From: a phage
Strand: one strand, 5' to 3'
Length of the DNA: 64,000 nucleotides
Assembly: GCA_019385495.1 (NCBI GenBank)
Contig: GCA_019385495.1_4102.1
Position numbers and translations under genes: made by a program. Under the pieces are notes generated by a model. The model was given only the letters and a program-made list of their open reading frames with translations, searched no databases and was not told the origin of the DNA. Positions 2,896-21,028 of this stretch are shown here, one piece after another. Position 1 is the first letter of the stretch. Each line of letters starts with the position of its first letter.

Positions 2896-3391
2896 TACTA
2901 ATATCTGGTTAGATAACATAATCAAGACATTAGAATTAATTAAACTTACATTACAAAAAACTACTGATATTGAAATTAATATTAAACAAGAAATATTAAA
3001 CTATTATCATAGAAACAAATATAGCACGTTTATCTCTAAATTAATTTATGGATTATATGATATTGAAGATATTTGCATCGGTTACAGTACTGGTATTTGC
3101 TTCACTGTTAATGGTTTAAAAAATGATTTAAATTTCAGACTTTCCGATGAAGAGCAAGATTTTCGTAGATTTTGTGATAATATTATGGATACAGACAAAA
3201 TTACATTTGTGATTGAATTAAATCAAACATGGTCTACATATGCAGATAAACCATTTGAAATTAATGAAACAGATGTGTTAAACTATATTCGAGTTATGAA
3301 AATTCATGATTTGTGTAAAAACGCATTGTTAAGTATTGGAGCTTATAATGAAACATACGACTTGGTTGAAGATAGCAGAAGTAGTTGCTGA
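2867..3391 (+). CDS. hypothetical protein
   Basis: 174 aa ORF, overlaps upstream gene by 29 nt, GAGGGA upstream. Confidence 0.45.
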   Translation: MKYTHLSIDDTNIWLDNIIKTLELIKLTLQKTTDIEINIKQEILNYYHRNKYSTFISKLIYGLYDIEDICIGYSTGICFTVNGLKNDLNFRLSDEEQDFRRFCDNIMDTDKITFVIELNQTWSTYADKPFEINETDVLNYIRVMKIHDLCKNALLSIGAYNETYDLVEDSRSSC

Positions 3392-3827
3392 GGAAAGTAA
3401 ATGTATTTCACAAAAAGTTGGTTGTGTTATTGTTAAAAATAATAGAGTATTGAGTACTGGATACAATGGAACGCCATCTAAGCAGCCAAACTGTTGTGAT
3501 GTAAATCAACATTTAGTGAACGATGGTCGTTTTCAAGACTGGGTTGATGATGCAGCAAAACATGAACATCATGAGTGGAGTAATATTCATGAGATCCATG
3601 CAGAGATGAACGCTTTACTGTATAGTTCTCCGACTGAACGCCAAGGAGCAACTCTTTACACAACTCTACAACCATGCTATACTTGTTCTAAGTTAATCGC
3701 AGGTAGTGGGATTACCCGTGTAATTTATCACAAAAGTTATCCACGAACACCACCTGAAGCGATTAAAGTACTGGAAGATGCTGGGATTATTGTTAACTGC
3801 ATTTATGACAAGGGTATGAATCAATGA
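3348..3827 (+). CDS. cd: dCMP deaminase
   Basis: Zinc-deaminase motifs HAEMNA and PCYTCSKLI; N-terminus resembles T4 Cd (from memory); ATG at M5 of ORF 3336. Confidence 0.8.
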   Translation: MKHTTWLKIAEVVAEESKCISQKVGCVIVKNNRVLSTGYNGTPSKQPNCCDVNQHLVNDGRFQDWVDDAAKHEHHEWSNIHEIHAEMNALLYSSPTERQGATLYTTLQPCYTCSKLIAGSGITRVIYHKSYPRTPPEAIKVLEDAGIIVNCIYDKGMNQ

Positions 3828-6545: not shown

Positions 6546-6554
6546 GGATTGAAT

Positions 6555-7307
6555 ATGATATCAGAAAAATTTATAAGCAATGAAGGTAAAAAGCGATTAC
6601 TGATTATATCAGGTGCAGGACTTTCTGTTGAAAGTGGTATGGAACCTTTTCGATTTGATGATGGTTTGTGGGATACATTTAAAATTAATGATGTATGTAA
6701 CATTGCTAGTTTAACTACGAAATATCACGTTGTTCATTCCTTCTATAATACATTACGTGTAAAATTGGGACAATGCGAACCCAATGCAATGCATTATTTT
6801 ATAAAATCGTTAGAAGATCAATATGGTGATTGCTTCCTTCATATGACTTCTAACATGGACGATCTTTATACTCGTATTGGTGGTCATGAGCTTAAACTTC
6901 ATGGAAACTTGTGCGAAGTTATTGAAAATTATAGTATCAATTCCGATGATTATAATGTTATTAACTGCGGATACGAACCATACATACCAAAACATGATGT
7001 TTTTGCTAAACCAAATGTAGTAATGATTGGAGAATATCATCGTTATGTTGATGGTATTCGCTTACCAATTTACGAAGAACGAAATAATGTGTTGAAATCT
7101 CTTAATGAAAATGATACAGTTATTGTAATTGGTAGTAGCGATACAGTACTGGTATGGTCGAGATTAGCAGCAGCATTACCATGTTATAGTGTTAATGTTA
7201 ACATTCGTAAAAATGATAATGATTTTTTGTTTAATGAAAAAGTTATCAAGCCAGCAACCAAAGCAATACCGCATCTAGAGACTATAATTAAGGAACGTAT
7301 GAAATGA
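6555..7307 (+). CDS. Sir2-family (sirtuin-like) NAD-dependent enzyme
   Basis: ISGAGLSVESGMEPFRFDDGLW matches sirtuin GAGISxESGIxTFR; later blocks collinear with CobB; Zn-ribbon cysteines not evident. Confidence 0.75.
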   Translation: MISEKFISNEGKKRLLIISGAGLSVESGMEPFRFDDGLWDTFKINDVCNIASLTTKYHVVHSFYNTLRVKLGQCEPNAMHYFIKSLEDQYGDCFLHMTSNMDDLYTRIGGHELKLHGNLCEVIENYSINSDDYNVINCGYEPYIPKHDVFAKPNVVMIGEYHRYVDGIRLPIYEERNNVLKSLNENDTVIVIGSSDTVLVWSRLAAALPCYSVNVNIRKNDNDFLFNEKVIKPATKAIPHLETIIKERMK

Positions 7308-8544: not shown

Positions 8545-9984
8545 ATGAAAAAATATACAATTGACACAAACGTACTACTATCTGACCCTAATGCATCTAT
8601 TGCTTTTGATGGTGCTGCAATCATTCTACCATTTACAGTACTGGAAGAATTGGATTCAATTAAGAGTCGTAATGTAGATGTTTCACGCGATGCTCGTGTT
8701 GCTATTCGTAACATTGAAGCAATTATTGCAGATGCATCACATGATGAGATTAGTAGTACTGGTGTTAATATTGCTGATGTTCATACCAATATGAATCCTG
8801 ATAGCAAATTGTTTGTTATTACAAACGAAGAAGCTGAAGCACTAATTCGTACTAAAGGTTCAGAAGAGAAAGTTCAAACCCTTCTCAAAAGCACAGTACC
8901 TGATGATAAAATCATTCTGGTAGCTTTAGCAACAGAATCAGTACTGGTAACTCGTGATATCAACATGCGTATCAAAGCACTAAGTTATGGTGTCGAGGTA
9001 CAAGATTATCGCCATGATATTGTTATTGGTGATAGTGATTTGATTCACATTGGTCAACACCATTTGGAAATCAATTTTTGGGAAGTATATAGCAACTTAA
9101 CCAATACTAATATTCAATCCGAACAAGTTGGTCGTCGTTTGTATCATTACATTTCCAAAAGCTTGATTGAGCATTTGCTCCCACAAAATCTATGCATCGG
9201 GGATTATCTATATGATGATGCAGACGTATTATTTGTGTACGAAGGTCAATCAGCAATTGAGGAAGATGATGGAACACTAACACCAGAAGATATTTTGGTA
9301 TTCCAAGATATTGGACAATCAGTAGCTTTACGTGCTAAAGTATGGGATATTAAAGCAAAGAATATCCAACAAGCACTCGCCATCAACAGTATTCTCGATC
9401 CTGATGTACATCTAACAGTACTGCTAGGTTCTGCTGGTACTGGTAAAACACTAATTACGATTGCGACTGCATTAGAATTAGTACTGGAAAAACGTAAATA
9501 CGACCGAATCATCTTCTCTAAAACTCAAGACTCACAGTTTGAAGATATTGGTTTCTTGCCAGGTTCAGAAGCAGAAAAAGTGATTCCATTCTGTGGAGCC
9601 GCAATTGACGCGTTAGAGTTTCTTCATAAAGATGATGCTAACCCTCAAGGTAGTATTGAAGAGATTATGAAACGTAATGTTATTCAATTTAAAGCACTAA
9701 ACTTTGTACGTGGACGTTCATTCACCAACACTATTCTAGTAGTTGATGAATTCCAAAACATTACACCTGCACAAGCCAAAACAATCTTGACACGAGCAGG
9801 ATTAAACTGTAAAGTAGTAATTATGGGTAACTTGAGTCAGATTGACAGTAAGTTTATTAGTCCTGTTAACAGTGGTTTGACATATGTAACTGAGAAGTTT
9901 AAAGATTGGGCAGGTTGTCGTGTCATCGAACTTGAAGGTGTTGTTCGCTCACCACTAGCTGAATTTGCTGAAGAAAATATGTAA
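8545..9984 (+). CDS. phoH: PhoH-like ATPase with N-terminal PIN domain
   Basis: Acidic PIN-like N-terminus (TNVLLSD...LEELD); Walker A GSAGTGKT, Walker B VVDEFQN. Confidence 0.8.
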   Translation: MKKYTIDTNVLLSDPNASIAFDGAAIILPFTVLEELDSIKSRNVDVSRDARVAIRNIEAIIADASHDEISSTGVNIADVHTNMNPDSKLFVITNEEAEALIRTKGSEEKVQTLLKSTVPDDKIILVALATESVLVTRDINMRIKALSYGVEVQDYRHDIVIGDSDLIHIGQHHLEINFWEVYSNLTNTNIQSEQVGRRLYHYISKSLIEHLLPQNLCIGDYLYDDADVLFVYEGQSAIEEDDGTLTPEDILVFQDIGQSVALRAKVWDIKAKNIQQALAINSILDPDVHLTVLLGSAGTGKTLITIATALELVLEKRKYDRIIFSKTQDSQFEDIGFLPGSEAEKVIPFCGAAIDALEFLHKDDANPQGSIEEIMKRNVIQFKALNFVRGRSFTNTILVVDEFQNITPAQAKTILTRAGLNCKVVIMGNLSQIDSKFISPVNSGLTYVTEKFKDWAGCRVIELEGVVRSPLAEFAEENM

Positions 9985-12978: not shown

Positions 12979-13006
12979 CAGTACTGTCATAATGGCAGTA
13001 CTTTTT
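12979..13006 (+). terminator. intrinsic terminator
   Basis: CAGTACTG-loop-CAGTACT stem then T-run. Confidence 0.45.
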
Positions 13007-13020
13007 AATTGGAGATTACT

Positions 13021-13635
13021 ATGACTACATCGGAAAAGTACTGGTGGATTTTGGCTCATCCTAAATTCATAAACAAAGATATGGTTCCAGCTAGGATTGA
13101 TATAGAACCTCATGATGTGTGTCCAATGACAAATCGAATTGAAGATTTCAAAGCATTGAATACAAAGACTCAATTTTGGGTAGAATTTCTTTCACCAATG
13201 TATATTGAGCAAGACGACGAATGGGTACAAGCACATGATTATCAATTGGATTGTGGTGGTGATACGTATGAAGAGGCGATTGATAAATTATACAAAAATG
13301 TGCTAAACACATATGGTGATTACACCCAACAAGAAGCAGATAACACATTTAATAAGATCCATGCATTCAAATCTACTCCATCAATTTTTAATCCCACTAA
13401 AACTGTTTGGGAGGAACGACACAGTTGGAGTTCATGTGTAATCGATGAAGAAACCAAAGAAAAAATCATCGATGATATAAAAAATTTAAAAAATACGATA
13501 GAAGCCTTGCGTGAATTCATAATGTCTTGTACAATAGAACAACAGAAAGAGGCAAAGATACATTTGGAGAGTGAAGAATGTAAACTTTGGGTTCTAGAGA
13601 AATCTATTGAAAAGGGTATAGACTTAGACTTATGA
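13021..13635 (+). CDS. hypothetical protein
   Basis: ORF 13009 (TTG); ATG at M5 after GGAG. Confidence 0.55.
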   Translation: MTTSEKYWWILAHPKFINKDMVPARIDIEPHDVCPMTNRIEDFKALNTKTQFWVEFLSPMYIEQDDEWVQAHDYQLDCGGDTYEEAIDKLYKNVLNTYGDYTQQEADNTFNKIHAFKSTPSIFNPTKTVWEERHSWSSCVIDEETKEKIIDDIKNLKNTIEALREFIMSCTIEQQKEAKIHLESEECKLWVLEKSIEKGIDLDL

Positions 13636-14000
13636 ATAGTAAATTGGAGAAACTAATCGAAGAATTACGCCAGATGCCACCTATTGAACAAGTAGGAAAT
13701 TACAAACGGTATCGTGTTATTGCTCGTGCACTTGATAAAAAAGGTAGAGTACTGGCAACTCGCACAAATTCTTATACACAGACTCACCCAGTACAGAAGG
13801 GTTTCGCCATTCGTGCTGGGCGACCGCAAGGTGAGTTTCTTCATGCTGAAATTTCATGTTTACTGGCTGCTCGTGCTGATGTTCATACTTTACTGATTGC
13901 ACGGATAAGTAAAGATGGAATTCCTGTTCCGGCTAAACCATGTGAAATTTGCTCATTAGCAATAAAAGAATATGGGGTGAAAGAGATTATCCACACATGA
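13632..14000 (+). CDS. small CDA-fold zinc deaminase (TadA/CDA-like)
   Basis: HAEISCL and PCEICSL zinc-binding motifs; 122 aa. Confidence 0.6.
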   Translation: MNSKLEKLIEELRQMPPIEQVGNYKRYRVIARALDKKGRVLATRTNSYTQTHPVQKGFAIRAGRPQGEFLHAEISCLLAARADVHTLLIARISKDGIPVPAKPCEICSLAIKEYGVKEIIHT

Positions 14001-15404: not shown

Positions 15405-15507
15405 ACTTGTCATAGGTTGTAGTGCAATTGCTGCATATATGCTTTTTTCAGCCCCAACCAATGTATTACTGTTAATTTGGGCAGTTGTTATATTAGCAGT
15501 ACTTTAA

Positions 15508-15532
15508 AGCACCCTAGTGGTGCTTTTTCTAT
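15508..15532 (+). terminator. intrinsic terminator
   Basis: AGCACC-CTAGT-GGTGCT then T-run. Confidence 0.45.
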
Positions 15533-15666: not shown

Positions 15667-17472
15667 ATGCAATTAGATAAATTATATACTGACGTAACGA
15701 ATTTCCTCAATCAGAGCAATACTGATCTTACCAACGAAAATGCGAACAAAGATGCGAAATGCGTCAATACACACAGGGATTTACTTGCAGGTATCCTATC
15801 TAAGCATTATTCACAAGATGTTATTCCAAATGAGCTAATGCAGTGGCATAATGATGGTTATGGTCATATTCATGATTTAGACTACTATATCAGCCCATTA
15901 ACCAACTGTTGCTTAGTTAACTACCCAGATATGCTAAAAAATGGATTTACCATTGGTTGTGCCAAAATTGAAGAACCAAAGAGTTTTAGTGTAGCATGTA
16001 CAGTACTGACACAAATTGTTCAGGCTGTTGCTAGTTCCCAGTACGGTGGACAATCGTTGGCTCATATTGACGTTGGTCTTGAACCTTACGTCCAAAAGTC
16101 ATGGGATAAGCTGTTAGAAAAACAAAAGAAATATAATCTAAGTGATGAGTTCATTGAAGAAGAATTACGAAAAGAAGTATACGATGGATGTCAAACATTA
16201 CTTTACCAGACTAATTCAATGATTAGCACTAATGGACAAGCTGCATTCATTTCTCTTAGTTTAGGGCTTAATACTTCTAAATTTGGTAAATTAATCACTG
16301 AACAGTACTTAAAAGTTCATGAGAATGGTTTAGGTAAAGATAAGATTACTCCAGTGTTTCCTAAAGTAATTTTCTTTTTACAAGATGGTATAAACATGAA
16401 TACCAATGATAGTAATTATGACCTTAAACAGTTAGCTATGCGTTGTGCATCAAAACGAATCTACCCAGACTTTGTTTCAGTTCCATTAAATCACAAAGTG
16501 ACTGGAAGTAGTAGTACTGCTGTAACACCGATGGGCTGTCGTTCATTCTTAGGAAAATGGGAAGATTCAAATGGAAATGAACAATACAACGGTCGTTTCA
16601 ATTTAGGCGTAGTTTCTATCAATTTACCTCTAATTGCTCTTGAGTGTGCTTCTGATGGAGAGTTTTTTGATAAGATAGACGAGCACATGAATATTGCATA
16701 TCGTGCTCAGATGAACCGTGTGGAGCGTTTAAAAGGCACTAAAGCGAAGCAGAATCCAATTTTGTTCATGGAAGGTGCATTAGCACGTTTAGGTGCAGAA
16801 GAAACCATTGACAAGCTATTTTACAATGGTTATGCTAGTATTAGTATTGGTTATGTTGGTCTTGTTGAATGTTCAGAAATCCTCACTGGTTCTATCAGTA
16901 AGGAGTTTTGTATGTCAGTACTGAATTATATGAAAGTAAAATGTGATGAGTTCAAAAAAGAAAGTAATATTGCTTTTAGTCTATATGGAACTCCAGCAGA
17001 GTCGCTTTGTTATAAATTTGCACGTTGCATTGAAGCAAAATATCCTTCAGTACTAAAACGTGATTACATCACAAATTCCTTCCATCAACCAGTATGGGTA
17101 GAAAGTTCTCCATTTGATAAATGGAGTTATGAAGAAGGCTTTGCTTACCTAAGTAACGGTGGAAACATCAGTTATGTTGAATCTCCAAACTTAGCAAACA
17201 ACATTCAAGCACTTGAAACATTAGTTAACTATGCGTACACTAAGATACCATATTTTGGTATTAACCAACCAGTTGACCATTGTTATGAATGTGGCTTCCA
17301 GGGTGAGTTCAGTGTAGATAAACATGGTTTCCACTGTCCGGTATGTGATAATCGTAATGAGAAGACAATCTCAGTGATTCGTCGTGTTTCTGGTTACTTG
17401 GGTAATCCTTCTTCGCGTGGATTCAATAAAGGCAAACAACAAGAGTGTTGTGAGCGTATTCAGCACAAATAA
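15667..17472 (+). CDS. nrdD: anaerobic ribonucleoside-triphosphate reductase
   Basis: Glycyl-radical motif RVSGYLG, C-terminal Zn ribbon CYECG...CPVC, N-terminal region matches T4 NrdD pattern; start at M22 after AAGGAA; no intron. Confidence 0.85.
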   Translation: MQLDKLYTDVTNFLNQSNTDLTNENANKDAKCVNTHRDLLAGILSKHYSQDVIPNELMQWHNDGYGHIHDLDYYISPLTNCCLVNYPDMLKNGFTIGCAKIEEPKSFSVACTVLTQIVQAVASSQYGGQSLAHIDVGLEPYVQKSWDKLLEKQKKYNLSDEFIEEELRKEVYDGCQTLLYQTNSMISTNGQAAFISLSLGLNTSKFGKLITEQYLKVHENGLGKDKITPVFPKVIFFLQDGINMNTNDSNYDLKQLAMRCASKRIYPDFVSVPLNHKVTGSSSTAVTPMGCRSFLGKWEDSNGNEQYNGRFNLGVVSINLPLIALECASDGEFFDKIDEHMNIAYRAQMNRVERLKGTKAKQNPILFMEGALARLGAEETIDKLFYNGYASISIGYVGLVECSEILTGSISKEFCMSVLNYMKVKCDEFKKESNIAFSLYGTPAESLCYKFARCIEAKYPSVLKRDYITNSFHQPVWVESSPFDKWSYEEGFAYLSNGGNISYVESPNLANNIQALETLVNYAYTKIPYFGINQPVDHCYECGFQGEFSVDKHGFHCPVCDNRNEKTISVIRRVSGYLGNPSSRGFNKGKQQECCERIQHK

Positions 17473-17480
17473 GGTAAATT

Positions 17481-17813
17481 ATGGATTTAAAGCCAATTGT
17501 GGTTAACAAATACAAAGAACCGTATGATGTGTATATTGGACGTGGGTCTAAATGGGGAAACCCATTTACCCATATTAAAGATAAACAAACCAAAGCCGAG
17601 TTCATTGTTAGTACAAGAGAAGAATCAATTGAAAAATTCAGAGAATACATTATTGAACGTATTTCTTGTGGAGAAGTTAAGATTGATGAATTACTTGAAC
17701 TCGCAGGGAAACGCCTTGGTTGTTTCTGTAAACCAAAATCATGTCACGGCGATGTTCTTGTCGAAATAGTGAGTGCAATATTAGATGAATTACCAGACGA
17801 TAATCAAGGATGA
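17481..17813 (+). CDS. DUF4326-like protein
   Basis: YIGRGSKWGNPF motif recalled as the DUF4326 signature; lies between nrdD and nrdG. Confidence 0.5.
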   Translation: MDLKPIVVNKYKEPYDVYIGRGSKWGNPFTHIKDKQTKAEFIVSTREESIEKFREYIIERISCGEVKIDELLELAGKRLGCFCKPKSCHGDVLVEIVSAILDELPDDNQG

Positions 17814-18255
17814 TTTAGTAAATGGAGAGGGCGTTCGCTGCTCTTTATTTGTTAGTGGGTGTTCGCACGGATGTGATGGTTGCTTCAATGAAGAAGCATG
17901 GGATTACAGAAGTGGTCAATTGTTCAGTACTGAAACAGTTGAGATTATACTACAGGAACTAAAAAAACCATATGTTAGTGGTTTGTCACTTCTAGGTGGT
18001 GATCCATTAATGAAAAAGAATATAGATGAAGTTTTAAATCTATGCAAAGTAGTTAAAGAAACTTATCCTAGTAAAACTATTTGGTGCTGGAGTGGGTATA
18101 CTTTAGATGAGATTATGAAAAATCATTCTAAAGATATACTTCAGTACTTAGATGTATTAGTTGATGGTAAGTTTATCGAGTCCGAAAAGAATTTAAAATT
18201 ACCTTTCCGTGGTTCAAATAATCAAAGAATACTATATAAAAATAAAGATTTTTAG
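17785..18255 (+). CDS. nrdG: anaerobic RNR activating enzyme (radical SAM)
   Basis: CSHGCDGC (CX3CX2C) cluster motif; 156 aa; overlaps upstream gene by 29 nt. Confidence 0.85.
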   Translation: MNYQTIIKDDLVNGEGVRCSLFVSGCSHGCDGCFNEEAWDYRSGQLFSTETVEIILQELKKPYVSGLSLLGGDPLMKKNIDEVLNLCKVVKETYPSKTIWCWSGYTLDEIMKNHSKDILQYLDVLVDGKFIESEKNLKLPFRGSNNQRILYKNKDF

Positions 18256-18331: not shown

Positions 18332-21028
18332 ATGTCAAAGAAAATATATGGTGGCTTAGATGTCACACATAATGTGACAGTTAATGGTAAAAGAACAATT
18401 CAAGGAATAAATGAACAAGTTTTTGATTCCAACGGTAACTTGGAATTAGATACTTATTCCAGAGATGAAGTACTAGATATAGTAAGTATGATACCAATCT
18501 CCCATTATGGTTCACAAAACTATCTACCTGCGGGTGTTTCTGGGGATTTCAATGGTGCATCAGAAAACCAGTCACAACGTAGAAATAAAATTTTATTAGA
18601 AAACGATGGTACACTAGTGCTTTTACGTAGTGGGACAAACGGTAGTGTTGAGGGATTATTTTATTCATATTTGGCTAACGCATTATCAGTTGATGACATG
18701 AGCCGTACAATTAACACCAGTCGTCAATACAAGCCTGGGTTTTTTGGTTCAAATAGAGTTGCGATTGGTTTATACAATACTGATCCAAATATTTTACTCG
18801 GTAGATATATTGATACTTCTAACAGTACTAATGGTTTGTTCATATCAATTACCAATGGTACATTAGATGATAAATTGCATACTGGTTTTTTCGTTAACCA
18901 AGCAGATATATCACCGGAAGGTGGTATTGAATATGCTATGATGGCAGAAGATGGTTCTATATATGTTTTTAGCGTACTTAATGAAAATAACCAACTACAA
19001 TTAGTTGTTGTTAAAGTTGTTTATAATATAAGCAATGGTACTTATACTGCAACTCGAATTACTGGATGGACTACTAAAACATTTTATAACACGACATATT
19101 CTGCACAAAATAATATGGTTATTACTAATCAGGTAAGATCAACAAATATTGCTGATAAACCTTATGCTTATGTCCCACAAAATCTACGCGGTATTGGGAT
19201 TTACATGACATCAATTGATTTATATGTTGCACAGCAGCCAGGAACGCAGAATTTCCGCTTTAGAATGAACGGGGACGCTTGGTTTACAATGGCAACATAT
19301 AATACACGTCCACAGCATAGTTACAGTTTTGTGTTCAATATGAGTACTAAACAATGTACATTAGATGCGGGTAACGATATTGGTTCATATCAAGCACCAT
19401 TAGTTATAACTAATACTGGTTCGGCATTAGTTCCTACTGGTAACGTTTTAAATAACGATCCATTGTATAACCATGCAAATGCAAGAAACATTTATAGTTC
19501 ATATTTTTATTTAAATTCAGGTGAAGCATTTTGTACTGCATGTCCAAACTTAGCAGAACCATTACTTATGCAAAAAGCTAAGTTTCCTATTCAAATAGTT
19601 TATAGTATGCTGAATGTCCGTGCTGTACTTTCTACTGACTTCAAAGGTGGTATAGTTCGCCCGTCTTTTGGTTCAGCGGTTGGTTCATTTATTAATGGTG
19701 TAGAATTACTACCAGATAACAGTACTAAACAATATTCACGTGCATCAGGTAGTGGTGGATTTAGACCATCATATGCAGTTCATAAAAGTACTCCTAATTT
19801 TACATTTAAATCATTATCTTTAGGAACAATACAAGGTTATGAACCTACAGTTGAACGTGCTAATGTTGATGATAATGCAAATAATAGAATTTTTATTAGT
19901 AGTATTTCTGGGTCAACTGTCACAACCAATGGTGGTATTTTTATGGTTGGGCAACGTTATTCACAATCATTATCCTATGATAAAAACTTAAATGGCACAG
20001 GAATTATAAGCGTTACACAATCAGTACTGGACAATTTTAGAAATACTGAATATGCCAAAGTTCTAAGTGATTGGAATTTATCAGCACAAGCATACCGTGA
20101 TATGACACTATTTGTTCCACAACAAACAGACATTCCAGCTTTTGTTATGTTGAGTACAATTACTAATGATTATAGAAACTATATTAGAATTGCTGAAGTT
20201 AATGTCAATACTAGAGTTGGTAATATTACATCTATTACATTTAAGCGTTTAGTACTTGAGAATACGTATGGTGATAACTTTACACCAACTGGGAATGGTT
20301 CGATTGCATCTTCTTCTGTTGGTTTGACAATATATGATGGTGGTTCATTCTACTTCATTGGTGGTTCTGATCCATTATCACATCCAACAATAGGTAATAC
20401 TGCAACTCATCAATTTAGAGCATATGTAACTAAATCAACTGCACAATTTACAAGTTTTATAATTACTGGATCTCATGCCAGTTATGAACAAGGAAGTCAA
20501 CCAGCAGCATTACCTGGTATTGGTTTTGGAATTTTTGAACCAATGGATTACTCAAATAAAATGACATTCAAAAAATATGGAACAACGATTGCAGACTATA
20601 ATAACTGGACTGCACAAGGTAGCCCAATTAACGTAGTATCCCAGGACGTTGCTCAAGGGTTTATTGTATATTTTACAGAGGAAACACCAGTTATTCTTTC
20701 AGGTAAGTCATTTTCACTACCAGTTTCAAATATTGATTTGAGAACTATTAAGTCTAATCCAGCAAATACAACATTTTATGTATATGTTAAATTGGAACAA
20801 GGATTGGCAAACTATTACATAACTACTGATGTTATTTCTGAAACAGGAACAACTGCATATAATATTTTTTGGATAGGTACAATTCAAACTAATGCAATTC
20901 AAATCGAAACAATTAATATACAAAAACGTTCCCGTTTAGATATATTTGGTGCTTCACTTGAATCAGCAGGTTCATCGTTCCCAGTTAGCTACGGTCTACC
21001 ATCACAAACAGGAACCATAAACTGGTAA
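18332..21028 (+). CDS. tail fibre protein, paralogue 1 (898 aa)
   Basis: G/S/T/N-rich; N- and C-terminal modules shared with ORF 21644..24373; C-terminal tail ...SSFPVSYGLPSQTGTINW. Confidence 0.6.
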   Translation: MSKKIYGGLDVTHNVTVNGKRTIQGINEQVFDSNGNLELDTYSRDEVLDIVSMIPISHYGSQNYLPAGVSGDFNGASENQSQRRNKILLENDGTLVLLRSGTNGSVEGLFYSYLANALSVDDMSRTINTSRQYKPGFFGSNRVAIGLYNTDPNILLGRYIDTSNSTNGLFISITNGTLDDKLHTGFFVNQADISPEGGIEYAMMAEDGSIYVFSVLNENNQLQLVVVKVVYNISNGTYTATRITGWTTKTFYNTTYSAQNNMVITNQVRSTNIADKPYAYVPQNLRGIGIYMTSIDLYVAQQPGTQNFRFRMNGDAWFTMATYNTRPQHSYSFVFNMSTKQCTLDAGNDIGSYQAPLVITNTGSALVPTGNVLNNDPLYNHANARNIYSSYFYLNSGEAFCTACPNLAEPLLMQKAKFPIQIVYSMLNVRAVLSTDFKGGIVRPSFGSAVGSFINGVELLPDNSTKQYSRASGSGGFRPSYAVHKSTPNFTFKSLSLGTIQGYEPTVERANVDDNANNRIFISSISGSTVTTNGGIFMVGQRYSQSLSYDKNLNGTGIISVTQSVLDNFRNTEYAKVLSDWNLSAQAYRDMTLFVPQQTDIPAFVMLSTITNDYRNYIRIAEVNVNTRVGNITSITFKRLVLENTYGDNFTPTGNGSIASSSVGLTIYDGGSFYFIGGSDPLSHPTIGNTATHQFRAYVTKSTAQFTSFIITGSHASYEQGSQPAALPGIGFGIFEPMDYSNKMTFKKYGTTIADYNNWTAQGSPINVVSQDVAQGFIVYFTEETPVILSGKSFSLPVSNIDLRTIKSNPANTTFYVYVKLEQGLANYYITTDVISETGTTAYNIFWIGTIQTNAIQIETINIQKRSRLDIFGASLESAGSSFPVSYGLPSQTGTINW

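What the first reader, a model, noticed from the sequence alone, without database searches (positions are those of the whole stretch)
13632..14000. Second, minimal CDA-fold deaminase distinct from dCMP deaminase
Besides the dCMP deaminase at 3348..3827, a 122-aa protein carries HAEISCL and PCEICSL zinc-ligand motifs but shares no other blocks with it. Small TadA/CDA-like deaminases in phages may edit nucleotides, tRNA or DNA, or deplete a nucleotide pool.
Basis: partly seen in the sequence, partly recalled or inferred. Interest (0 to 1): 0.45.

Follow-up and report, generated by a model that had tools for sequence, protein, structure and literature searches.

The report
Minimal second cytosine deaminase in jumbo phage
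This jumbo E. coli phage really does carry a second, very small zinc deaminase: it belongs to a large, virus-only and untested branch of the cytidine/dCMP deaminase family, most likely helps make thymine nucleotides, and was already annotated in related phages.

Summary
ORF 13632..14000 (+) encodes 122 aa with HAEISCL and PCEICSL. Only two such zinc-motif pairs occur in the six frames of the 64 kb window; the other is the canonical dCMP deaminase at 3348..3827.

It belongs to a large, essentially viral family: 1,074 clusters (at 50% identity) score E<=1e-10, including phiKZ gp260, Rak2-like phages, cyanophages and Aeromonas phages. Family features:
- an extra helix carrying an [ST]-H-P-x-Q motif;
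- a near-invariant Arg91;
- uniformly basic pI (median 9.6);
- a chain that ends after strand beta4, so beta5 is absent. About half the family keeps a short beta4-beta5 hairpin.

The nearest characterised relatives all act on cytosine: dCMP deaminase, dCTP deaminase and cytidine deaminase.

My best guess (about 0.4) is an unregulated deoxycytidine-nucleotide deaminase, possibly accepting dCTP, that feeds dTTP synthesis in a 34% GC phage. It sits just upstream of NrdD/NrdG. No experiment exists for this clade.

The gene is already annotated "dCMP deaminase" in 121Q, CBB and other phages, so interest is modest.

The parts
13632..14000 (+). Mini CDA-fold deaminase ORF (122 aa, 13.7 kDa, pI 9.67)
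13842..13862 (+). HAEISCL: Zn-ligand His71 and catalytic Glu73 at the start of helix alpha2
   Evidence: H71 is conserved in 198/199, A72 in 193/199 and E73 in 199/199 family members. The helix spans residues 72-80 in the model.
13938..13958 (+). PCEICSL: Zn-ligand Cys104 and Cys107 at the start of helix alpha3
   Evidence: P103 is conserved in 198/199, C104 in 199/199 and C107 in 199/199. The helix spans residues 105-114.
13764..13796 (+). Family-specific block T-N-S-Y-T-Q-T-H-P-V-Q (residues 45-55): Asn46 plus the extra helix with the [ST]-H-P-x-Q motif, inserted between beta2 and the HAE helix
   Evidence: N46 196/199, H52 187/199, P53 190/199, Q55 178/199. The extra helix spans residues 53-61. 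The motif is also present in the phiKZ, Aeromonas-phage and cyanophage homologs.
13902..13904 (+). Arg91 at the end of beta3, a near-invariant basic residue of the family in the beta3-alpha3 loop
   Evidence: R in 196/199 members; K or R in 99%.
13021..13635 (+). Upstream partner gene of unknown function (204 aa from the ATG; a TTG at 13009 gives 208 aa), translationally coupled to the deaminase
3348..3827 (+). Canonical dCMP deaminase (159 aa), the 'first' deaminase of the finding
   Evidence: Pfam PF00383 5.6e-22. PHROG_174 7.5e-62. PADLOC dCTPase-domain model 1.7e-24. pI 6.69.
15667..17472 (+). NrdD, anaerobic ribonucleoside-triphosphate reductase, 1.7 kb downstream
   Evidence: Pfam NRDD 4.4e-166. 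The same neighbourhood is seen in 121Q, CBB and KP13-7.
17785..18255 (+). NrdG activase
   Evidence: Pfam Fer4_12 2.1e-53 and Radical_SAM.
12980..13002 (+). Terminator-like hairpin (10-bp stem plus T-run) just upstream of the partner gene. Together with the hairpin at 15506..15526 it may bracket the transcription unit.
   Evidence: This is a consensus scan only. The overall terminator count (3 found against 1.9 expected) is not significant.

Best explanation
The ORF encodes an active zinc-dependent hydrolytic deaminase of the CDA superfamily. His71, Cys104 and Cys107 hold the zinc and Glu73 shuttles the proton. It belongs to a large, phage-specific 'mini' clade whose members are only about 100-130 aa long.

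The fold is pared down to alpha1-beta1-beta2-[extra helix]-alpha2-beta3-alpha3-beta4. The usual C-terminal elements that close the pocket are missing (beta5, or alpha4-beta5). In their place the clade has its own conserved residues in the two remaining substrate loops: Asn46, Lys/Gln50, Thr51, His52, Pro53 and Gln55 before the HAE helix, and Arg91, Gly96 and Lys102 before PCxxC.

I infer that it deaminates cytosine in a phosphorylated deoxycytidine substrate. The open, strongly basic pocket may accept dCDP or dCTP as well as dCMP. On this reading it is a small, allosterically unregulated second source of dU nucleotides for the phage's dUMP-specific thymidylate synthase. That would help a 34% GC genome replicate in a host that is about 51% GC (host value from general knowledge). 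It would complement the canonical dCMP deaminase, and the neighbouring class III reductase NrdD makes dCTP directly.

What is shown: the ORF, selection on it, the fold, the intact catalytic site, the family's distribution, and its clade-specific features. What is inferred: the substrate (cytosine; nucleotide rather than nucleoside or polynucleotide; tolerance of the triphosphate) and the physiological role.
For: Fold and catalysis:
- Pfam PF00383 is above its cut-off, and all 119 diverse members pass it.
- E73, C104 and C107 are invariant, and H71 is conserved in 198/199.
- dN/dS is 0.03-0.05.

Cytosine specificity:
- By my sequence alignment, the residues that contact the dC moiety in T4 dCMP deaminase (Val24, Asn40, Ala105, Glu106, Pro131; PMC12697855) correspond to V29, N46, A72, E73 and P103, all conserved.
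- The best profile-to-PDB matches are dCMP deaminases: S-TIM5 4.6e-10, S. mutans 3.4e-7, T4 6.5e-6, human 1.3e-5.
- The weak NCBIfam matches, counted over members, are the anti-phage dCTP deaminase (71/119), tetrameric CDA (45) and ComEB (32), against only 13 for TadA.

Phosphorylated or bulky substrate:
- Family pI has a median of 9.63, with 97% of members above 8.5. The canonical copy has pI 6.69. Position 91 is Arg in 196/199 members and K or R in 99%.
- PBS1 Dcd, which lacks only 14 C-terminal residues, is a dCTP deaminase with a more open pocket (PMC12697855). Here the chain stops right after beta4.

Role:
- The window is 33.9% GC.
- The thymidylate synthase of the close relative 121Q has Asn at the E. 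coli N177-equivalent position, so it is dUMP-specific.
- NrdD/NrdG lie 0.45-2 kb downstream in 121Q, CBB and KP13-7.
- Neighbours in 24 other viral lineages are replication and nucleotide-metabolism genes such as RNR, ThyX, PolB, ligase and gp32.
- In phage KLEP7 the family member is the only CDA-type deaminase in a 35% GC genome that has a thymidylate synthase and RNRs.
Against: - No biochemical data exist for any member of this clade. None turned up in the literature searches.
- The phage already has a canonical dCMP deaminase, so a second dC-nucleotide deaminase is not obviously needed.
- The C-terminal region that binds the 5'-phosphate in dCMP deaminases is absent, and I could not inspect model coordinates to confirm that Arg91, Lys102 and His52 line the pocket.
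- A uniformly high pI and an open pocket fit a nucleic-acid substrate equally well.
- Outside the Rak2-like phages no metabolic partner gene is conserved.
- The NrdD linkage is lineage-specific. In KLEP7 NrdD is about 40 kb away.
- A dCTP deaminase would produce dUTP, and I did not look for a phage dUTPase.
Confidence: 0.4

Rival explanations
1. It is a polynucleotide cytosine deaminase. The open four-stranded pocket and basic surface bind ssDNA or RNA (host or phage transcripts, tRNA, or replication or repair intermediates), and it edits or damages C to U as a host-takeover, anti-defence or regulatory function.
For: Family pI has a median of 9.6 and 97% of members exceed 8.5. The pocket-closing C-terminal elements are missing. 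69/119 members also match the MafB19-like toxin-deaminase model, although canonical dCMP deaminases match it too. Phage PF00383 'dCMP deaminases' have been shown to deaminate ssDNA in vitro (bioRxiv 10.1101/2024.12.05.627091). The upstream partner, translationally coupled and conserved in Rak2-like phages, could be an inhibitor or a targeting subunit.
Against: There is no immunity-like or inhibitor gene conserved across the family, and neighbours differ in 24 lineages. The nearest characterised relatives by sequence act on mononucleotides or nucleosides. The beta4-alpha4 loop, which sets DNA specificity in APOBEC enzymes (general knowledge), is absent. An unregulated DNA deaminase would also mutate the phage's own genome.
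Confidence: 0.2
2. It is a nucleoside-level cytidine/deoxycytidine deaminase like tetrameric CDA. It would salvage (deoxy)cytidine released by host nucleic-acid breakdown into (deoxy)uridine.
Against: The TIGR01354 score is 13.7 bits against a cut-off of 113.65. The first zinc ligand is His, whereas tetrameric CDA uses Cys (general knowledge). The near-invariant Arg91, other conserved basic residues and pI of about 9.6 suggest an anionic substrate. The CDA C-terminal segment that completes the neighbouring active site is missing from this protein.
Confidence: 0.12
3. It is a deaminase specific for 5-modified dC nucleotides (5-methyl or 5-hydroxymethyl dCMP/dCTP), as in the phage mSCD enzymes. 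It would either make dTMP or 5hmdUMP, or remove modified cytosine from the pool.
For: Phage PF00383 proteins with this preference exist and are polyphyletic (bioRxiv 10.1101/2024.12.05.627091).
Against: Those enzymes lie within 3 kb of a thymidylate-synthase homolog predicted to act on dCMP. Here the thymidylate synthase of the close relative 121Q is about 52 kb away and carries Asn (GVPFNISSY) at the N177-equivalent position, so it is dUMP-specific. ThyA/ThyX was adjacent in only 1 of 24 other lineages.
Confidence: 0.05
4. It is a TadA-like tRNA adenosine(34) deaminase, or another purine deaminase such as guanine deaminase, serving phage-encoded tRNAs or purine salvage.
Confidence: 0.05
5. 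It is a non-catalytic CDA-fold protein, for example a decoy or dominant-negative binder of a host deaminase-type defence enzyme, or a nucleotide-binding regulator.
For: The fold is truncated to four strands. 71/119 members show weak similarity to the deaminase domain of anti-phage dCTP deaminases.
Against: The catalytic Glu and both Cys are invariant in 199/199 members, and His in 198/199. Pseudo-enzymes normally lose these residues. The window protein does not match the PADLOC defence dCTP-deaminase model.
Confidence: 0.03

Closest known systems
dCMP deaminase clade (T4 Cd, cyanophage S-TIM5 dCD, S. mutans/ComEB, human DCTD; IPR016473)
   Same: Same superfamily and Pfam family, with the same HAE/PCxxC zinc site. 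By my alignment the residues contacting the dC moiety are conserved (V29, N46, A72, E73, P103, corresponding to T4 V24, N40, A105, E106, P131). The insert between beta2 and the HAE helix is of similar length. These are the best profile matches among solved structures (S-TIM5 4.6e-10). The setting is also the same: phage nucleotide metabolism.
   Different: The chain ends after beta4, so the alpha4-beta5 unit is missing, along with the C-terminal residues that close the pocket and bind the 5'-phosphate. There is no second structural Zn or allosteric dCTP/dTTP site. The protein has only three Cys (C76, C104, C107) and nothing equivalent to T4 C19, C49 and H94. It carries a clade-specific [ST]HPxQ helix and Arg91. 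It is basic (pI 9.7 against 6.7). There is no ComEB match, and it has only 25% local identity to the canonical copy in the same genome.
PBS1 Dcd and related CDA-fold dCTP deaminases, including the deaminase domain of anti-phage dCTP deaminases (NF041025)
   Same: These are CDA-fold enzymes in which loss of C-terminal residues opens the pocket for a triphosphate (PMC12697855). NF041025 is the NCBIfam model hit, weakly, by the most family members (71/119).
   Different: PBS1 Dcd keeps the full dCMP-deaminase fold and the second metal site and lacks only 14 residues. Defence enzymes carry an N-terminal kinase-like domain. The window protein itself matches neither NF041025 nor the PADLOC model. 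dCTP activity is only inferred here.
Tetrameric cytidine deaminase and blasticidin-S deaminase (the C-terminal-hairpin division of the CDA superfamily)
   Different: The first zinc ligand is His rather than Cys. TIGR01354 scores 13.7 bits against a cut-off of 113.65. This protein has no beta5 and no C-terminal tail. It has an extra helix, and its basic character suggests an anionic substrate.
Phage 5mC/5hmC-selective 'dCMP deaminase' homologs (mSCD-B5 and relatives)
   Same: They are phage PF00383 proteins whose annotation as dCMP deaminase hides a different substrate range, including ssDNA.
   Different: Those enzymes are linked to a dCMP-methylating or hydroxymethylating ThyA homolog. Here the ThyA of the close relative 121Q is dUMP-type and lies far from the gene.

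Membership tests
CDA superfamily / Pfam PF00383 (dCMP_cyt_deam_1) | H(A/S)E ... PCxxC zinc-binding and catalytic motifs | tested here: met
   HAE at residues 71-73 and PCEIC at residues 103-107. E, C and C are invariant in 199/199 relatives and H in 198/199.
CDA superfamily / Pfam PF00383 (dCMP_cyt_deam_1) | Score at or above Pfam's gathering threshold | tested here: met
   29.0 bits against a cut-off of 25, E=1e-6. 119/119 diverse family members match at E<=0.01.
CDA superfamily / Pfam PF00383 (dCMP_cyt_deam_1) | Three-layer alpha/beta/alpha fold with a five-stranded sheet (beta2-beta1-beta3-beta4-beta5) | tested here: inconclusive
   [not shown]
dCMP deaminase (T4 Cd / ComEB / DCTD; IPR016473, TIGR02571) | Conserved residues contacting the dC moiety (T4 V24, N40, A105, E106, P131) | tested here: met
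   By my sequence alignment these correspond to V29, N46, A72, E73 and P103, all conserved. The T4 residue list is from PMC12697855.
dCMP deaminase (T4 Cd / ComEB / DCTD; IPR016473, TIGR02571) | C-terminal alpha4-beta5 unit that closes the pocket and binds the 5'-phosphate | tested here: not met
   The protein ends at the position where S-TIM5, S. mutans and T4 enzymes continue (alignments; secondary structure).
dCMP deaminase (T4 Cd / ComEB / DCTD; IPR016473, TIGR02571) | Allosteric dCTP/dTTP site and, in T4-type enzymes, a second structural zinc (C19, C49, H94, E102) | tested here: not met
   The only Cys residues are C76, C104 and C107, with no Cys or His at the equivalent positions (sequence). 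The T4 ligand list is from PMC12697855.
dCMP deaminase (T4 Cd / ComEB / DCTD; IPR016473, TIGR02571) | Match to the curated equivalog model | tested here: not met
   The window protein has no ComEB hit. Only 32/119 relatives hit it, and weakly.
Tetrameric cytidine deaminase (TIGR01354) | Curated model score at or above 113.65 bits | tested here: not met
   13.7 bits, E=0.056, covering only the HAE-PCxxC segment.
Tetrameric cytidine deaminase (TIGR01354) | Cys-Cys-Cys zinc site and a beta4-beta5 hairpin with a C-terminal tail that completes the neighbouring active site | tested here: not met
   The first ligand is His71 and the chain ends after beta4. The CDA features listed are from general knowledge.
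TadA / ADAT2 tRNA adenosine deaminase (NF008113) | Match to the curated model, and C-terminal helices that bind the anticodon arm | tested here: not met
   The window protein has no hit, and 13/119 relatives hit only weakly. There is no C-terminal helix. The role of those helices is general knowledge.
Anti-phage dCTP deaminase (NF041025 / PADLOC dCTPase) | Match to the defence-system models, and an N-terminal kinase-like domain | tested here: not met
   No PADLOC hit for the window protein or for phiKZ gp260, whereas the canonical copy at 3348..3827 hits at 1.7e-24. This is a single-domain 122-aa protein.
5mC/5hmC-selective phage deaminases (mSCD) | Location within about 3 kb of a ThyA homolog predicted to act on dCMP (Asp at the E. 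coli N177 position) | tested here: not met
   There is no ThyA in the neighbourhood. The 121Q ThyA lies about 52 kb downstream and has Asn in GVPFNISSY.
Any deaminase family | Demonstrated catalytic activity and substrate | not testable with these tools
   This needs purified protein and nucleoside, nucleotide and oligonucleotide assays.

The most novel reading that the evidence does not exclude
The mini clade could be a natural four-stranded CDA-fold enzyme of 100-125 aa that deaminates cytosine in polynucleotides (ssDNA, RNA or tRNA) rather than in free nucleotides. Many unrelated phages, including phiKZ-like, Rak2-like and cyanophages, would use it for host takeover, counter-defence or regulation. 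In Rak2-like phages it might be controlled by the translationally coupled upstream His/Cys-rich protein. That would make it among the smallest natural nucleic-acid deaminase scaffolds.
Probability: 0.15. Interest if true: 0.75.

Novelty: new variant of a known kind. Interest (0 to 1): 0.3.

Why it matters
If the best explanation is right, this is ordinary phage nucleotide economy with one twist: a second, tiny and probably unregulated deaminase alongside the classical allosteric dCMP deaminase.

What deserves attention is the clade rather than this single gene:
- It has more than a thousand sequence clusters (at 50% identity), appears to be confined to viruses, and is present in model phages such as phiKZ (gp260). 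Databases label it 'dCMP deaminase', 'TadA' or 'hypothetical' interchangeably.
- No member has been tested.
- It shows that the CDA fold tolerates repeated loss of its fifth strand while keeping an intact catalytic site under strong selection.

Defining its substrate would correct a widespread annotation. It would also clarify why jumbo phages keep two deaminases. If the enzyme acts on polynucleotides, it could provide a very compact deaminase scaffold for base editing.

Tried and rejected
- Single-sequence phmmer against PDB sequences found nothing meaningful. Only the family profile worked.
- The afdb50 fold library was unavailable.
- BFVD returned only viral 'dCMP deaminase' or unnamed models and gave no functional information.
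Its peptide patterns are narrow, which means the near-absence from cellular genomes (2 MAG hits) is suggestive rather than proof.
- Neighbourhood analysis over 30 lineages and 203 neighbouring ORFs found no conserved partner outside the Rak2-like phages.
- Stop-codon readthrough restoring a beta5-like tail is rejected. Stop codons vary and the sequences after them are unrelated.
- A split gene with the downstream 73-aa ORF is rejected. That ORF is not conserved in size or presence across lineages.
- A defence-type dCTP deaminase is rejected.
- The 5-modified-cytosine pathway is disfavoured by the ThyA Asn test.
- The TadA idea is disfavoured.
- Literature searches for phiKZ gp260 returned papers that, judging by their titles, concern SPN3US gp260.
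- A collection-wide cross-tabulation of mini against canonical deaminases was not possible with the tools. I scanned one whole genome, KLEP7, instead.
- The promoter scan was not above the shuffled expectation.
Full report
**1. Observation**

HAEISCL is residues 71-77 and PCEICSL is residues 103-109. A six-frame scan of the whole 64-kb window for an open [HC][AS]E-x15-70-PCxxC pattern finds exactly two matches. One is this ORF. The other is at 3597, inside the canonical dCMP deaminase (3348..3827; Pfam PF00383 5.6e-22; PHROG_174 7.5e-62). The two proteins are only remotely similar: 25% identity over a partly misaligned 99 aa, pairwise E=0.005.

The gene's start overlaps the stop of the upstream gene (ATGA), and its stop overlaps the start of the next gene. 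Against its orthologs in phages 121Q and vB_Ec-M-J, dN/dS is 0.030 and 0.050, with dS of 0.54 and 0.90. It is therefore a functional, constrained gene.

**2. Where the window comes from**

The region is 99.7% identical to Escherichia phage vB_Eco_slurp01 and 91% identical to phage 121Q. These are jumbo myoviruses of about 350 kb in the genus Asteriusvirus, part of the Rak2-like group. The ortholog is already annotated 'dCMP deaminase' in 121Q (gp490, alongside gp469 'CMP/dCMP deaminase'), in CBB (gp135), in K64-1, in GAP32 and in others. In many records it is 'hypothetical'. [quoted passage not shown] So the presence of a second deaminase in this phage group is already on record at the annotation level.

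**3. Fold and catalytic site**

Pfam PF00383 is passed, narrowly (29 bits against a cut-off of 25). No other curated model is passed: TIGR01354 scores 13.7 bits against 113.65, and PHROGs lumps the protein into the broad dCMP-deaminase family.

An AlphaFold2 model built on 25 homologs has mean pLDDT 93.2. Its topology is:
- alpha1 (residues 3-13)
- beta1 (28-34)
- beta2 (40-45)
- an extra helix (53-61)
- alpha2 carrying HAE (72-80)
- beta3 (86-92)
- alpha3 carrying PCxxC (105-114)
- beta4 (118-121), after which the chain ends

**4. The family**

An exhaustive profile search of 1.84 billion representative proteins finds 4,423 clusters (at 50% identity) at E<=1e-3 and 1,074 at E<=1e-10. All 150 best hits are 96-166 aa long.

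Across 199 sequences, conservation is as follows:

| Residue | Conserved in |
|---|---|
| Glu73, Cys104, Cys107 | 199/199 |
| His71 | 198/199 |
| Asn46 | 196/199 |
| Arg91 | 196/199 |
| Pro53 | 190/199 |
| His52 | 187/199 |
| Gln55 | 178/199 |

The [ST]-H-P-x-Q block lies in the extra helix. It is shared by the homologs in phiKZ (PHIKZ260, which has HSE in place of HAE), in Aeromonas-type phages and in cyanophage ACG-2014f. Among 50,697 phage records, tblastn finds homologs in 196, covering Rak2-like phages, phiKZ-like phages, Salicola SCTP-2, Aeromonas phages of about 115 kb, and T4-like cyanophages.

Narrow family peptide patterns gave 169 confirmed relatives in IMG/VR contigs. A related pattern gave only 2 in one genome each of 185,579 bacterial and archaeal species, and both of those are metagenome-assembled bins. 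The family therefore looks essentially viral, with the caveat that the patterns are narrow.

All 119 diverse members tested match PF00383.

**5. The truncated fold**

The number of residues after the second Cys falls into two groups:
- 15-17 residues in about 100 of 190 members, including this protein. These end right after beta4.
- 23-30 residues in about 75 members.

The extra tails are 8-15 residues long and follow the pattern [T/D/N]-x-x-G followed by alternating hydrophobic residues. That is long enough for a tight turn and one strand, which would form a beta4-beta5 hairpin as in cytidine deaminase and blasticidin-S deaminase. It is too short for the alpha4+beta5 unit of dCMP deaminases and TadA. 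This reading is inferred from length and pattern, not from a model.

On a neighbour-joining tree the short and long forms are interleaved, with at least 34 state changes. The tree is crude because the proteins are so short, but it suggests that beta5 has been lost or gained many times and is dispensable. Readthrough of the stop codon does not restore a tail: stop codons vary (TAA, TAG, TGA) and the sequences after them are unrelated.

**6. Which known enzymes it is closest to**

A 119-sequence family profile searched against PDB sequences gives these matches:

| Solved structure | E-value |
|---|---|
| Cyanophage S-TIM5 dCMP deaminase | 4.6e-10 |
| Mycoplasma tRNA deaminase | 2e-8 |
| S. mutans dCMP deaminase | 3.4e-7 |
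| T4 dCMP deaminase | 6.5e-6 |
| Human DCTD | 1.3e-5 |
| TadA enzymes | from 7e-5 |
| B. subtilis CDA | 5e-3 |

In these alignments the family ends where dCMP deaminases continue into alpha4-beta5.

Scanning each of the 119 members against NCBIfam, the weak matches by member count are the anti-phage dCTP deaminase (71), tetrameric CDA (45), ComEB (32), PRK08298 CDA (28) and TadA (13). None approaches a curated cut-off. The window protein and phiKZ gp260 do not match the PADLOC defence dCTP-deaminase model, whereas the canonical copy does at 1.7e-24.

PMC12697855 lists the residues that contact the dC moiety in T4 dCMP deaminase as Val24, Asn40, Ala105, Glu106 and Pro131. By my alignment these correspond to V29, N46, A72, E73 and P103, all conserved. 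The T4 second-zinc/allosteric ligands have no counterpart, since the protein has only three Cys. The same paper shows that PBS1 Dcd, which lacks just 14 C-terminal residues, has a more open pocket and is a dCTP deaminase.

**7. Context**

The window is 33.9% GC. The gene sits in a long co-directional array of small early- or middle-type genes.

The upstream 204-aa gene (13021..13635) overlaps the deaminase start by 4 nt and is at position -1 in all six Rak2-like lineages sampled. It has a conserved N-terminal domain with invariant His, Cys, Asp and Glu residues and a C-terminal helical hairpin. It has no assignable family or fold.

NrdD (15667..17472) and NrdG (17785..18255) follow 1.7 kb downstream. 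The same linkage is present in 121Q, CBB and Klebsiella phage KP13-7, where nrdD starts 455 bp after the deaminase. Class III reductase makes dNTPs, so dCTP directly (general knowledge).

In 24 other viral lineages the neighbours differ: UvsW-like helicase, PolB, class I and II RNR, ThyX, ligase, gp32, RegA, a radical-SAM enzyme and a homing endonuclease. Together they describe a replication and nucleotide-metabolism module with no obligate partner.

The thymidylate synthase of the close relative 121Q lies about 52 kb downstream. It has Asn at the E. coli N177-equivalent position (GVPFNISSY), so it is a normal dUMP-to-dTMP enzyme. This argues against a 5-methyl or 5-hydroxymethyl cytosine pathway of the kind linked to the phage mSCD deaminases (bioRxiv 10.1101/2024.12.05.627091).

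In Pseudaeromonas phage KLEP7 (117 kb, 35% GC) a whole-genome six-frame and tblastn scan shows the mini-family gene is the only CDA-type deaminase. That genome also carries a thymidylate synthase and ribonucleotide reductases.

The family is uniformly basic, with median pI 9.63 and 97% of members above 8.5. The canonical deaminase in this window has pI 6.69.

**8. Interpretation**

What is shown:
- a real, selected gene;
- a CDA fold;
- an intact catalytic site that is invariant across a very large viral family;
- clade-specific conserved residues lying in the two loops that contact substrate in CDA-fold enzymes (beta2-alpha2 and beta3-alpha3);
- absence of the C-terminal pocket-closing elements.

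What is inferred:
- The substrate is cytosine, because every nearest characterised relative acts on cytosine and the dC-contact residues are kept.
- The substrate is anionic, because of the basic family pI and the near-invariant Arg91.
- The pocket can take a bulkier group than dCMP, because of the truncation and by analogy with PBS1 Dcd.

My preferred reading, with confidence of about 0.4, is an unregulated dC-nucleotide deaminase (dCMP/dCDP/dCTP) that boosts dU and dT nucleotide supply for an AT-rich jumbo phage. It would complement the allosteric canonical enzyme and be linked functionally to NrdD.

The main rival, at about 0.2, is a polynucleotide cytosine deaminase. The same basic, open architecture fits that equally well. 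Nucleoside CDA (0.12), 5-modified dC (0.05), TadA or purine deaminase (0.05) and a non-catalytic role (0.03) are less likely, for the reasons given under each rival.

**9. Novelty and verdict**

The gene's existence and its generic annotation are already known. Neither its fold nor its chemistry is new. I did not find any description of the clade itself, that is, a phage-restricted, basic deaminase of about 100-130 aa with an [ST]HPxQ helix, a near-invariant Arg and a dispensable fifth strand. I also found no experimental work on any member.

I rate it a new variant of a known kind, with modest interest (0.3). The function remains an inference that a straightforward enzyme assay would settle.

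Noticed in passing
[not shown]
   Followed up: partly
window 12980..13002 and 15506..15526 (+): Two terminator-like hairpins (10-bp and 8-bp stems followed by T-runs) bracket a run of eight small co-directional ORFs that includes the partner gene and the deaminase. This may be one transcription unit. Promoter-like matches were not above the shuffled expectation.
   Followed up: no
window 15667..17472 and 17785..18255 (+): The anaerobic ribonucleotide reductase NrdD (Pfam 4.4e-166) and its activase NrdG lie just downstream of the deaminase. The linkage is conserved in 121Q, CBB and Klebsiella phage KP13-7.
   Followed up: partly
window 6549..7307 and 8545..9984 (+): A phage-encoded Sir2-family protein (Pfam SIR2, 3.6e-20) and a PIN-PhoH fusion protein (PIN_4 plus PhoH) lie a few kb upstream. 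Sir2 domains are better known from bacterial anti-phage defence, so a phage copy is worth a separate look.
   Followed up: no
window 18332..21028 (+): An 898-aa ORF directly after NrdG has no Pfam match at E<=1e-4. It is annotated hypothetical in 121Q (gp499).
   Followed up: no
L088 3759..4118 (phiKZ PHIKZ260); L003 3917..4336 (KLEP7 gp40): Some family members vary the middle residue of the catalytic triplet while keeping His and Glu. phiKZ-like phages have HSE and KLEP7 has HVE. phiKZ gp260 is a member of this mini-deaminase family but is unannotated in the phiKZ reference record.
   Followed up: partly
L094-L096 (Pseudaeromonas phage KLEP7, whole genome): The mini-family gene is the only CDA-type deaminase in this 117-kb, 35% GC genome, which also encodes a thymidylate synthase, NrdD/NrdG and other reductases. 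This is consistent with the mini enzyme being able to act as a phage's sole dC-to-dU converter.
   Followed up: yes
L091 2176..2460 and L092 2090..2374: The only two 'cellular' hits for the family are contigs in metagenome-assembled bins, one Candidatus Saccharibacteria and one Synechococcus sp. These may be phage contigs that were binned with the genomes.
   Followed up: no
L093 1263..2192 (121Q gp568 thymidylate synthase): This ThyA has Asn at the E. coli N177-equivalent position, so it is dUMP-specific. The phAPEC6 paper (PMC7247149) lists the orthologous thymidylate synthase among virion-associated proteins found by mass spectrometry, which is unusual for a metabolic enzyme.
   Followed up: partly
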